Shown piece by piece: positions 1 through 1,133 of a DNA stretch of 1,133 nucleotides (the first letter of the stretch is position 1; each line of letters begins with the position of its first letter). The stretch is from Escherichia coli. Its GTDB lineage: Bacteria > Pseudomonadota > Gammaproteobacteria > Enterobacterales > Enterobacteriaceae. The position numbers and the translations under genes are program-made. The stretch lies in the NCBI RefSeq assembly GCF_003334355.1, contig NZ_QOWP01000096.1. The stretch is one strand, 5' to 3'. A model generated the notes under the pieces. That model was not told the origin of the DNA and made no database searches. It saw only the letters and a list, made by a program, of their open reading frames with translations.

Positions 1-1133
1 AAAAACTGGATCGACAAAGAAGAATATCCGCAATCCGCAGCCATCGACCTGCGTTGCGTAAATATGGTTGCCGATCTGTGGCATGCGCCTGCGCCGAAAA
101 ATGGTCAGGCCGTTGGCACCAACACCATTGGTTCTTCCGAGGCCTGTATGCTCGGCGGGATGGCGATGAAATGGCGTTGGCGCAAGCGTATGGAAGCTGC
201 AGGCAAACCAACGGATAAACCAAACCTAGTGTGCGGTCCGGTACAAATCTGCTGGCATAAATTCGCCCGCTACTGGGATGTGGAGCTGCGTGAGATCCCT
301 ATGCGCCCCGGTCAGTTGTTTATGGACCCGAAACGCATGATTGAAGCCTGTGACGAAAACACCATCGGCGTGGTGCCGACTTTCGGCGTGACCTACACCG
401 GTAACTATGAGTTCCCACAACCGCTGCACGATGCGCTGGATAAATTCCAGGCCGACACCGGTATCGACATCGACATGCACATCGACGCTGCCAGCGGTGG
501 CTTCCTGGCACCGTTCGTCGCCCCGGATATCGTCTGGGACTTCCGCCTGCCGCGTGTGAAATCGATCAGTGCTTCAGGCCATAAATTCGGTCTGGCTCCG
601 CTGGGCTGCGGCTGGGTTATCTGGCGTGACGAAGAAGCGCTGCCGCAGGAACTGGTGTTCAACGTTGACTACCTGGGTGGTCAAATTGGTACTTTTGCCA
701 TCAACTTCTCCCGCCCGGCGGGTCAGGTAATTGCACAGTACTATGAATTCCTGCGCCTCGGTCGTGAAGGCTATACCAAAGTACAGAACGCCTCTTACCA
801 GGTTGCCGCTTATCTGGCGGATGAAATCGCCAAACTGGGGCCGTATGAGTTCATCTGTACGGGTCGCCCGGACGAAGGCATCCCGGCGGTTTGCTTCAAA
901 CTGAAAGATGGTGAAGATCCGGGATACACCCTGTACGACCTCTCTGAACGTCTGCGTCTGCGCGGCTGGCAGGTTCCGGCCTTCACTCTCGGCGGTGAAG
1001 CCACCGACATCGTGGTGATGCGCATTATGTGTCGTCGCGGCTTCGAAATGGACTTTGCTGAACTGTTGCTGGAAGACTACAAAGCCTCCCTGAAATATCT
1101 CAGCGATCACCCGAAACTGCAGGGTATTGCCCA
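1..1133 (+). CDS. gadA/gadB: Glutamate decarboxylase (PLP-dependent, Gad family), internal fragment truncated at both ends; about residues 82-458 of a ~466-aa protein
   Basis: Seen in sequence: frame 1 (codons at 1-3, 4-6, ...) is open across all 377 complete codons. The translation contains the PLP-attachment motif S-G-H-K-F (lysine codon AAA at 583-585), the GSSEAC phosphate-binding segment (130-147) and the long C-terminal segment ...[37 protein letters not shown]. From memory, the translation is identical or nearly identical to E. coli GadB/GadA over the whole window. The last 2 nt (1132-1133, 'ca') are the start of a Gln codon; about 8 more codons and the stop lie beyond the window. Paralog assignment (gadA vs gadB) is not possible here because the residues that differ between them are N-terminal, upstream of the window. 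Confidence 0.95.
574..588 (+). other. PLP cofactor attachment site: S-G-H-K-F motif, Schiff-base lysine (Lys276 in GadB numbering) at codon 583-585
   Basis: Seen in sequence: tca ggc cat aaa ttc at 574-588 in the coding frame encodes SGHKF. Established knowledge: in group II PLP-dependent decarboxylases, including E. coli GadB, the lysine of this motif forms the internal aldimine with PLP. The residue number is derived by aligning window codon 1 (K-N-W-I-D-K-E-E-Y) to GadB residue 82. Confidence 0.85.

What the first reader, a model, noticed from the sequence alone, without database searches (positions are those of the whole stretch)
1..1133. Paralog identity (gadA vs gadB) cannot be resolved from this window
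E. coli carries two nearly identical GAD genes at separate loci. gadA lies in the acid fitness island upstream of gadX; gadB is co-transcribed with the antiporter gene gadC. As I recall, the few amino-acid differences between them are all in the first ~25 residues, outside this window (which starts at about residue 82). Over the covered region the proteins are identical and the DNA is nearly so, a pattern usually attributed to gene conversion between the paralogs. Any short-read mapping or variant call in this region would therefore be ambiguous between the loci.
Basis: established knowledge. Interest (0 to 1): 0.3.

Follow-up and report, generated by a model that had tools for sequence, protein, structure and literature searches.

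The report
Collapsed gadA/gadB repeat contig of E. coli

Summary
The window is nt 244-1376 (codons 82-459) of an E. coli glutamate decarboxylase gene. It is 1132/1133 identical to K-12 gadA and 1129/1133 to K-12 gadB, and the protein is identical to both.

The three K-12 gadA/gadB differences inside the window (gene nt 642, 699, 1179) all show the gadA state. They are not fixed paralog markers. In 5,426 complete genomes, the gadA-type C at 642 occurs in 8,272 places (median two per genome). The gadB-type T at 642 or 1179 occurs in only 41-46% of genomes.

The only exact matches (five genomes) are at gadA. The window's rare allele, 471A, is also found at gadB in three other genomes.

The window's ends sit exactly next to flanking paralog differences at nt 243 and 1377. 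The exact 377-aa product is indexed in 584 blocks of public assemblies, 583 of them on contigs under 2 kb. Nine of ten places shown are contigs of exactly 1,133 bases. In a tenth assembly the same piece overlaps its neighbours by 77 bases.

So the window is the collapsed repeat node of a de Bruijn graph and stands for both loci. Its haplotype is gadA-like. This is known biology (gene conversion, Bergholz 2007) and a known assembly behaviour. Interest is low.

The parts
1..1133 (+). Internal fragment of an E. coli glutamate decarboxylase gene (gadA/gadB), gene nt 244-1376, codons 82-459 (the last codon is incomplete), frame 1. It has no start or stop codon.
   Evidence: Translation. Ungapped alignment to K-12 gadA (1 mismatch) and gadB (4 mismatches). 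PDB GadA 1xey and GadB 1pmm residues 82-458 give equal scores.
1..906 (+). Part of the pyridoxal-dependent decarboxylase conserved domain (Pfam PF00282, model positions 66-375 of 375).
   Evidence: hmmscan E = 4e-99, residues 1-302 of the fragment.
583..585 (+). AAA codon for Lys276 in the S-G-H-K motif. From established knowledge of GadB, this is the PLP-binding lysine.
   Evidence: Position computed and read in the sequence. The functional role comes from knowledge of the family and was not tested here.
228..228 (+). Rare synonymous allele A (gene nt 471, Leu157 CTA instead of CTG). It is the only difference from K-12 gadA.
   Evidence: An allele-specific 55-mer finds it in 9 places in 8 of 5,426 genomes. 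It is at gadA in six genomes and at gadB in three, with FHI_NMBU_03 carrying it in both copies.
399..399 (+). Gene nt 642: C in the window and K-12 gadA, T in K-12 gadB. It is polymorphic at gadB and not a fixed marker.
   Evidence: C is in 8,272 places in 5,313 genomes. T is in 2,342 places in 2,244 genomes.
456..456 (+). Gene nt 699: C in the window and K-12 gadA, T in K-12 gadB. It is not fixed.
   Evidence: gadB has C in NMBU-W12E19, FHI_NMBU_03 and NCTC10444, and gadA has T in EC2648-R2.
936..936 (+). Gene nt 1179: C in the window and K-12 gadA, T in K-12 gadB. It is polymorphic.
   Evidence: T is in 2,660 places in 2,482 genomes. Both copies of FHI_NMBU_03 have T.
1..1 (.). Left end of the contig. 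It lies one base after nt 243, the last of a cluster of near-fixed gadA/gadB differences at 234, 237, 240 and 243.
   Evidence: The gadA-type 243T occurs once per genome. Nine independent contigs start at the same base.
1133..1133 (.). Right end of the contig. It lies one base before nt 1377, where K-12-type gadB (A) differs from gadA (G).
   Evidence: 1377G is in both copies in most genomes, so this end implies that the source genome has a K-12/PSS-12-type gadB 3' end. Nine independent contigs end at the same base.

Best explanation
The window is the homogenised core of the duplicated E. coli glutamate decarboxylase genes. It was recovered as a stand-alone contig because a short-read (de Bruijn graph) assembler merged gadA and gadB into one node.

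The biology: gadA (next to gadX) and gadB (in an operon with gadC) keep distinct 5' ends of about 243 nt. Recurrent gene conversion keeps the next 1.1 kb nearly identical within each genome.

The assembly: k-mers lying wholly inside the shared stretch belong to both loci. The graph edge therefore runs from the first base after the last 5' difference (nt 244) to the last base before the next 3' difference (nt 1376), which is 1,133 bases. Any internal single-base differences between the copies are removed as bubbles.

The contig therefore represents both loci. Its alleles (471A, 642C, 699C, 1179C) equal gadA in the closest complete genomes. Either the gadA path won the bubbles, or the source strain's copies are truly identical.

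Shown here: the identity, the coordinates, the lack of fixed markers, the recurrence of 1,133-base contigs, and the k=77 overlaps in another assembly.

Inferred: that this particular window arose the same way.
For: - **Edges.** The window ends fall exactly between the K-12 paralog differences at 243 and 1377.
- **Source length.** The source is only 1,133 bases long.
- **Recurrence.** The exact 377-aa product is indexed in 584 blocks of public assemblies, 583 with contigs under 2 kb. Nine of ten places shown are contigs of exactly 1,133 bases, from NCBI draft genomes, ENA metagenome assemblies and Logan assemblies. All nine cover the same coordinates and carry 2-22 substitutions relative to the window.
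- **Graph overlaps.** In GCA_051846735.1 the same piece sits in the gadA locus between two 100-N gaps. It overlaps each neighbouring contig by exactly 77 bases.
- **Literature.** PMC3045373 lists gadA/gadB among the repeats that break K-12 shotgun contigs.
- **Concerted evolution.** In the window region, K-12 A vs B differ at 3 sites and FHI_NMBU_03 A vs B at 3, but the two strains differ at 23-25. In nt 1-243 the orthologs differ at 1-6 sites and the paralogs at 26-27.
- **No fixed marker inside the window**.
Against: - I cannot see the source assembly, its graph or its read depth, so the origin of this particular contig is inferred.
- All four sites that separate gadA from gadB in PSS-12 carry the gadA allele. 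If three bubbles were resolved at random this would happen 1 time in 8.
- The only exact matches among 5,426 complete genomes are at gadA and none at gadB. That fits a pure gadA fragment equally well.
- No contig with 471A was found in the JGI metagenome contigs.
Confidence: 0.85

Rival explanations
1. The window is a genuine single-locus piece of gadA, cut or amplified from the gadA locus of a strain like 90-3040 or PSS-12. It does not represent gadB.
For: The only exact matches are at gadA in five genomes, with ccp-gadA-gadX context confirmed for 90-3040. In those five genomes 471A occurs in one place only, at gadA. PSS-12 gadB differs from the window at four sites.
Against: Both ends coincide to the base with the flanking paralog differences. 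The same 1,133-base contig recurs in many independent assemblies. An arbitrary cut would have roughly a one-in-a-million chance of landing on both boundaries.
Confidence: 0.1
2. A variant of the main explanation: in the source strain a real gene conversion has made gadA and gadB identical across nt 244-1376, including 471A. The contig would then be an exact copy of both loci and not a bubble-popped consensus.
For: FHI_NMBU_03 carries 471A in both copies, so the allele does move between loci. NMBU-W12E19 gadB is identical to K-12 gadA across exactly 244-1376 while keeping gadB-type flanks. C at 642 in both copies is the commonest state.
Against: In the five genomes with an exact match, 471A is in gadA only. 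PSS-12 gadB is of the T-T-T type. Some gadB copies that look 'converted' in public assemblies are probably artefacts, because K-12 derivatives disagree with each other.
Confidence: 0.3
3. The window is a single-locus piece of gadB from a strain whose gadB interior carries gadA-like alleles.
For: gadB loci one mismatch away from the window exist (confirmed). 471A occurs at gadB in EC14, NCTC10444 and FHI_NMBU_03.
Against: No gadB among 5,426 genomes matches exactly. All nine places carrying 471A are accounted for, and the gadB copies differ from the window at 5, 15 and 23 sites. The objection from the window's edges applies here as it does to the gadA rival.
Confidence: 0.03

Closest known systems
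gadA of E. coli 90-3040, 2013C-3492, 2013C-4830, 2012C-4227 and PSS-12 (complete genomes)
   Same: 1133/1133 identical, including the rare 471A. The locus is ccp-gadA-gadX in 90-3040.
   Different: Those are full genes in a chromosome. The window is a stand-alone 1,133-base piece without the locus-specific ends.
E. coli K-12 MG1655 gadA (b3517), glutamate decarboxylase A
   Same: 1132/1133 nt, identical protein over residues 82-458, and the gadA state at 642, 699 and 1179.
   Different: One synonymous change, G471A (window position 228).
E. coli K-12 MG1655 gadB (b1493), glutamate decarboxylase B, co-located with gadC
   Same: 1129/1133 nt and identical protein over the window. GadB structures (1pmm) score the same as GadA (1xey).
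   Different: T at 642, 699 and 1179 and G at 471. These T alleles are a gadB polymorphism present in about 41-46% of genomes and are not a paralog-defining feature.
Gene conversion between gadA and gadB (Bergholz et al. 2007, Mol Biol Evol 24:2323; cited in PMC10362622)
   Same: The pattern seen here is concerted evolution: paralogs within a genome are about 8 times closer than orthologs between genomes in the core, and the reverse holds in the 5' 243 nt.
   Different: Nothing new. I could not read the paper itself because it is not held. I therefore could not compare the tract boundaries it reports with mine.
Repeat-induced contig breaks at duplicated genes (tufA/tufB, gadA/gadB) in E. coli shotgun assemblies (PMC3045373)
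   Same: The same genes are listed as a cause of contig breaks. The gadB break interval is about 1.15 kb long.
   Different: That study used 454 assemblies of K-12 NCM3722. Here the piece is the graph node itself, seen in Illumina-type assemblies.

Membership tests
E. coli glutamate decarboxylase GadA/GadB (PLP-dependent group II decarboxylase) | Pyridoxal_deC domain (PF00282) | tested here: met
   E = 4e-99, residues 1-302 of the fragment.
E. coli glutamate decarboxylase GadA/GadB (PLP-dependent group II decarboxylase) | Sequence identity to the solved E. coli enzymes, including Lys276 in the SGHK motif | tested here: met
   The translation is identical to K-12 GadA and GadB over residues 82-458. 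1xey and 1pmm score 897 bits. Lys276 is at window 583-585.
gadA locus specifically | gadA-type 5' end (nt 6-243; residues Q3, L5, L6, F9, A22) | not testable with these tools
   The window starts at nt 244. The marker at 243 is near-fixed but lies one base outside the window.
gadA locus specifically | Flanked by ccp upstream and gadX downstream | not testable with these tools
   The source is 1,133 bases long with no flanks.
gadA locus specifically | Whole-window haplotype found only at gadA in complete genomes | tested here: met
   Five exact matches, all at gadA. All nine places carrying 471A are accounted for, and no gadB is identical. This is supportive but not defining, because alleles move between the loci.
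gadB locus specifically | Followed by gadC, with a gadB-type 5' end | not testable with these tools
   Both features lie outside the window.
gadB locus specifically | K-12 gadB alleles T at 642, 699 and 1179 | tested here: not met
   The window has C at all three. Many gadB copies also have C, so this does not exclude gadB.
Collapsed two-copy repeat node of a short-read assembly | The ends coincide with the first differences between the copies on each side | tested here: met
   The window spans 244-1376, and the flanking differences are at 243 and 1377.
Collapsed two-copy repeat node of a short-read assembly | The same node recurs with the same ends in independent assemblies and overlaps its neighbours by k bases | tested here: met
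   Nine contigs of exactly 1,133 bases. 77-base overlaps on both sides in GCA_051846735.1.
Collapsed two-copy repeat node of a short-read assembly | About twofold read depth and two graph neighbours at each end in the source assembly | not testable with these tools
   No reads or graph are available for the window's source.
Concerted evolution by gene conversion | Paralogs within a genome are more alike than orthologs between genomes, and only inside the tract | tested here: met
   In the core, within-genome differences are 3 and 3 and between-genome differences are 23-25. In nt 1-243, paralogs differ at 26-27 sites and orthologs at 1-6. Only two genomes were compared in full.

The most novel reading that the evidence does not exclude
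Some 'complete' RefSeq E. coli genomes may carry a copy of this collapsed node pasted into both loci by hybrid assembly or short-read polishing. Part of the apparent gadA/gadB homogenisation in databases would then be artefact.

K-12 derivatives, which should be identical, disagree with each other. CP097883 gadB carries gadA alleles across exactly nt 244-1376. EC2648-R2 gadA carries T at 642 and 699 but C at 1179. Sibling isolates PG20180054 and PG20180052/58 differ at gadB.

The alternative reading is real gene conversion on laboratory time scales. That would be the more surprising result.
Probability: 0.5. Interest if true: 0.25.

Novelty: already known. Interest (0 to 1): 0.1.

Why it matters
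There is no new biology here. The value is practical.

- Variant calls, cgMLST alleles and gene-presence calls for gadA and gadB from short reads are ambiguous across nt 244-1376.
- The three sites that separate the K-12 copies cannot be used as general paralog markers.
- The usable markers lie in the first 243 nt and in the flanks.
- Gene-conversion frequencies estimated from public assemblies may be inflated by collapsed-repeat artefacts.

Tried and rejected
- **Exact window at gadB.** I searched with a chimeric query made of K-12 gadB flanks plus the window. The best gadB loci are one mismatch away and none is exact. The 471A-specific 55-mer then accounted for all nine places carrying that allele.
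- **JGI metagenome contigs.** A scan for a 35-mer carrying 471A gave no match, so no source contig was found there.
- **Bergholz et al. 2007.** I tried to read the paper (PMID 17675652) but it is not held. I cite it only through PMC10362622.
- **Plasmid matches.** The six 'plasmid' places reported were checked against PLSDB. They are chromosome-sized records or large fragments filed as plasmids, plus one 50-base edge match. This is not a plasmid-borne gad gene.
- **Other ORFs.** Other-frame and antisense ORFs in the window, such as 574-1110 on the minus strand (178 aa), are mechanical by-products of a coding region. I did not pursue them.
- **Not done.** I did not locate gadB in the four CDC strains. 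One search already shows that 471A is single-copy in them. I did not run a population count for site 699.

Full report
**What the sequence is.** The 1,133 bases form one open frame on the + strand (frame 1, 377 codons) with no start or stop codon. It aligns without gaps to nt 244-1376 of the 1,401-nt K-12 MG1655 genes gadA (b3517) and gadB (b1493). There is 1 mismatch to gadA and 4 to gadB. The translation is identical to both proteins over residues 82-458. It matches Pfam PF00282 (E = 4e-99). It scores equally against the solved GadA (1xey) and GadB (1pmm) structures. Lys276 of the SGHK motif lies at window 583-585.

All are correct.
- The window starts at codon 82.
- K-12 GadA and GadB differ only at residues 3, 5, 6, 9 and 22.
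- gadA lies between ccp and gadX, and gadB lies between pqqL and gadC.
- The DNA is nearly identical over the window: 3 differences in 1,133 nt, against 26 in the first 243 nt (Fisher p = 2e-17).

**Can the window be assigned to one paralog?** Taken against K-12 alone, it looks like gadA. The three internal K-12 differences (gene nt 642, 699, 1179 = window 399, 456, 936) all show the gadA base C. The one remaining mismatch is a synonymous G471A (window 228). The only exact matches among 5,426 complete E. coli genomes are five, all at gadA: 90-3040, 2013C-3492, 2013C-4830, 2012C-4227 and PSS-12. The ccp-gadA-gadX context was confirmed for 90-3040.

I then used 55-mers centred on single sites. 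Every 28-base seed word of such a query covers the central base, so only the queried allele is found.

| Site and allele | Places | Genomes (of 5,426) | Reading |
|---|---|---|---|
| 471A | 9 | 8 | Rare; single-copy in the five exact-match genomes |
| 642C (gadA type) | 8,272 | 5,313 | Median two per genome |
| 642T (K-12 gadB type) | 2,342 | 2,244 | Minority allele |
| 1179T (K-12 gadB type) | 2,660 | 2,482 | Minority allele |
| 243T (gadA type, outside window) | 5,330 | 5,299 | Median one per genome; all 40 sampled rows gadA or gad, none gadB |
| 1377G (gadA type, outside window) | 8,988 | 5,418 | Median two per genome; not fixed |

In PSS-12, gadB is of the K-12 gadB type and differs from the window at four sites.

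So the T alleles are a polymorphism of gadB, present in under half of genomes, and not a property of the paralog. A C at these sites favours gadA by less than 2 to 1. All three sites fail as markers in individual genomes that I read:
- gadB has C-C-C in NMBU-W12E19 and NCTC10444.
- gadB has C-C-T in FHI_NMBU_03, and gadA there is also C-C-T.
- The Sanger-era references E2348/69 and CFT073 have 642C in two places.

Because K-12 gadA and gadB are identical at every other window position, no other site can be a fixed difference.

The rare 471A does not help either. It sits at gadB in EC14, NCTC10444 and FHI_NMBU_03, and FHI_NMBU_03 carries it in both copies. In contrast, the site just outside the window, nt 243, is effectively fixed. 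The paralog-diagnostic region ends one base before the window begins.

**Why the window has exactly these ends.** The window runs from the base after the K-12 difference at 243 to the base before the difference at 1377, and the source is only 1,133 bases long. I looked up the exact 377-aa product in public assemblies.
- It is indexed in 584 blocks, 583 of which hold it only on contigs shorter than 2 kb.
- Nine of the ten places shown are contigs of exactly 1,133 bases.
- They come from unrelated NCBI draft genomes, ENA metagenome assemblies and Logan assemblies of sequencing runs.
- All nine cover the same coordinates, and they carry different haplotypes, with 2 to 22 substitutions relative to the window.
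- In the tenth place (GCA_051846735.1) the same piece has been scaffolded into the gadA locus between two 100-N gaps. It overlaps the contig on each side by exactly 77 bases. That is the signature of an edge in a k=77 de Bruijn graph.

A published study of K-12 shotgun assemblies lists gadA/gadB, with tufA/tufB, among the repeats that break contigs (PMC3045373). The window is therefore best read as the collapsed repeat node shared by gadA and gadB, and the question 'which paralog?' has no answer at the level of this contig.

The right end at 1376 also tells us something about the source. Its gadB carries the K-12/PSS-12-type A at 1377. That state is not universal, because 1377G is in both copies in most genomes. 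This fits the genomes that match the window best.

**Mechanism behind the shared core.** In the window region the two K-12 copies differ at 3 sites and the two FHI_NMBU_03 copies differ at 3 sites. Either K-12 copy differs from either FHI_NMBU_03 copy at 23-25 sites. In nt 1-243 the pattern reverses, with orthologs differing at 1-6 sites and paralogs at 26-27. This is concerted evolution with a sharp 5' boundary. It matches what is attributed to gene conversion between gadA and gadB (Bergholz et al. 2007, cited in PMC10362622). I could not read that paper itself. My comparison rests on two genomes read in full plus the population allele counts.

**What remains open.** There are two possibilities for the source strain.
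- The copies differ internally, as in PSS-12, and the assembler kept the gadA path at three bubbles. That is a 1-in-8 outcome if random. It becomes more likely if gadA has higher read depth. gadA lies nearer the replication origin than gadB, so this is plausible, but it is my inference and I did not test it.
- The copies are truly identical through a recent conversion.

Read depth and allele pile-ups in the source data would settle this.

**Verdict.** One refinement applies: the haplotype is gadA-like, with five exact matches at gadA and none at gadB. The contig itself stands for both loci. This is known biology and a known assembly behaviour, so interest is low.

Noticed in passing
L004 (NZ_CP097883.1, gadB at 1561-2961); L011 and L012 (NZ_CP084209.1 gadA and gadB); rows H46, H123 and H306: Assemblies of K-12 derivatives disagree at the gadA/gadB interior sites. 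The CP097883 record, labelled MG1655, has gadB with gadA alleles across exactly nt 244-1376. EC2648-R2 gadA has T at 642 and 699 but C at 1179. Sibling mouse-gut isolates differ: PG20180054 has gadB one mismatch from the chimeric query, consistent with C at all three sites (inferred from the score, not read), while PG20180058 and PG20180052 have T at gadB. The likely cause is pasting of the collapsed node or polishing artefacts in 'complete' genomes. Real conversion is not excluded.
   Followed up: partly
window 228 (gene nt 471); L006, L008, L009, L010: The rare synonymous allele 471A appears on at least three quite different haplotype backgrounds and at both loci. Those copies differ from the window at 0, 5, 15 and 22-23 sites. 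This suggests recurrent mutation, or transfer between loci and strains.
   Followed up: partly
L013 (GCA_051846735.1, JBPYCA010000001.1), locus 2581-4233: A chromosome-scale scaffold has the 1,133-base node inserted in gadA between two 100-N gaps, with the 77-base overlaps left duplicated. As a result gadA is called as separate fragments of 107 aa and 377 aa.
   Followed up: yes
row H6 (NZ_CP135658.1, strain TUM10008): One gad copy is interrupted by an IS1A element, and the match is split into two pieces.
   Followed up: no
Some genomes hold up to 10 places matching the window. The six 'plasmid' matches are chromosome-sized records or large fragments (252 kb, 385 kb) filed as plasmids. They are not mobile gad genes.
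   Followed up: partly
L014-L022 (1,133-base contigs): States at 642/699/1179 in the collapsed contigs include C-C-C (six contigs), C-C-T, T-T-C and T-C-C. The T-C-C combination splits two sites only 57 nt apart. It was not seen in any complete gene I read, so it may be a chimeric consensus.
   Followed up: no
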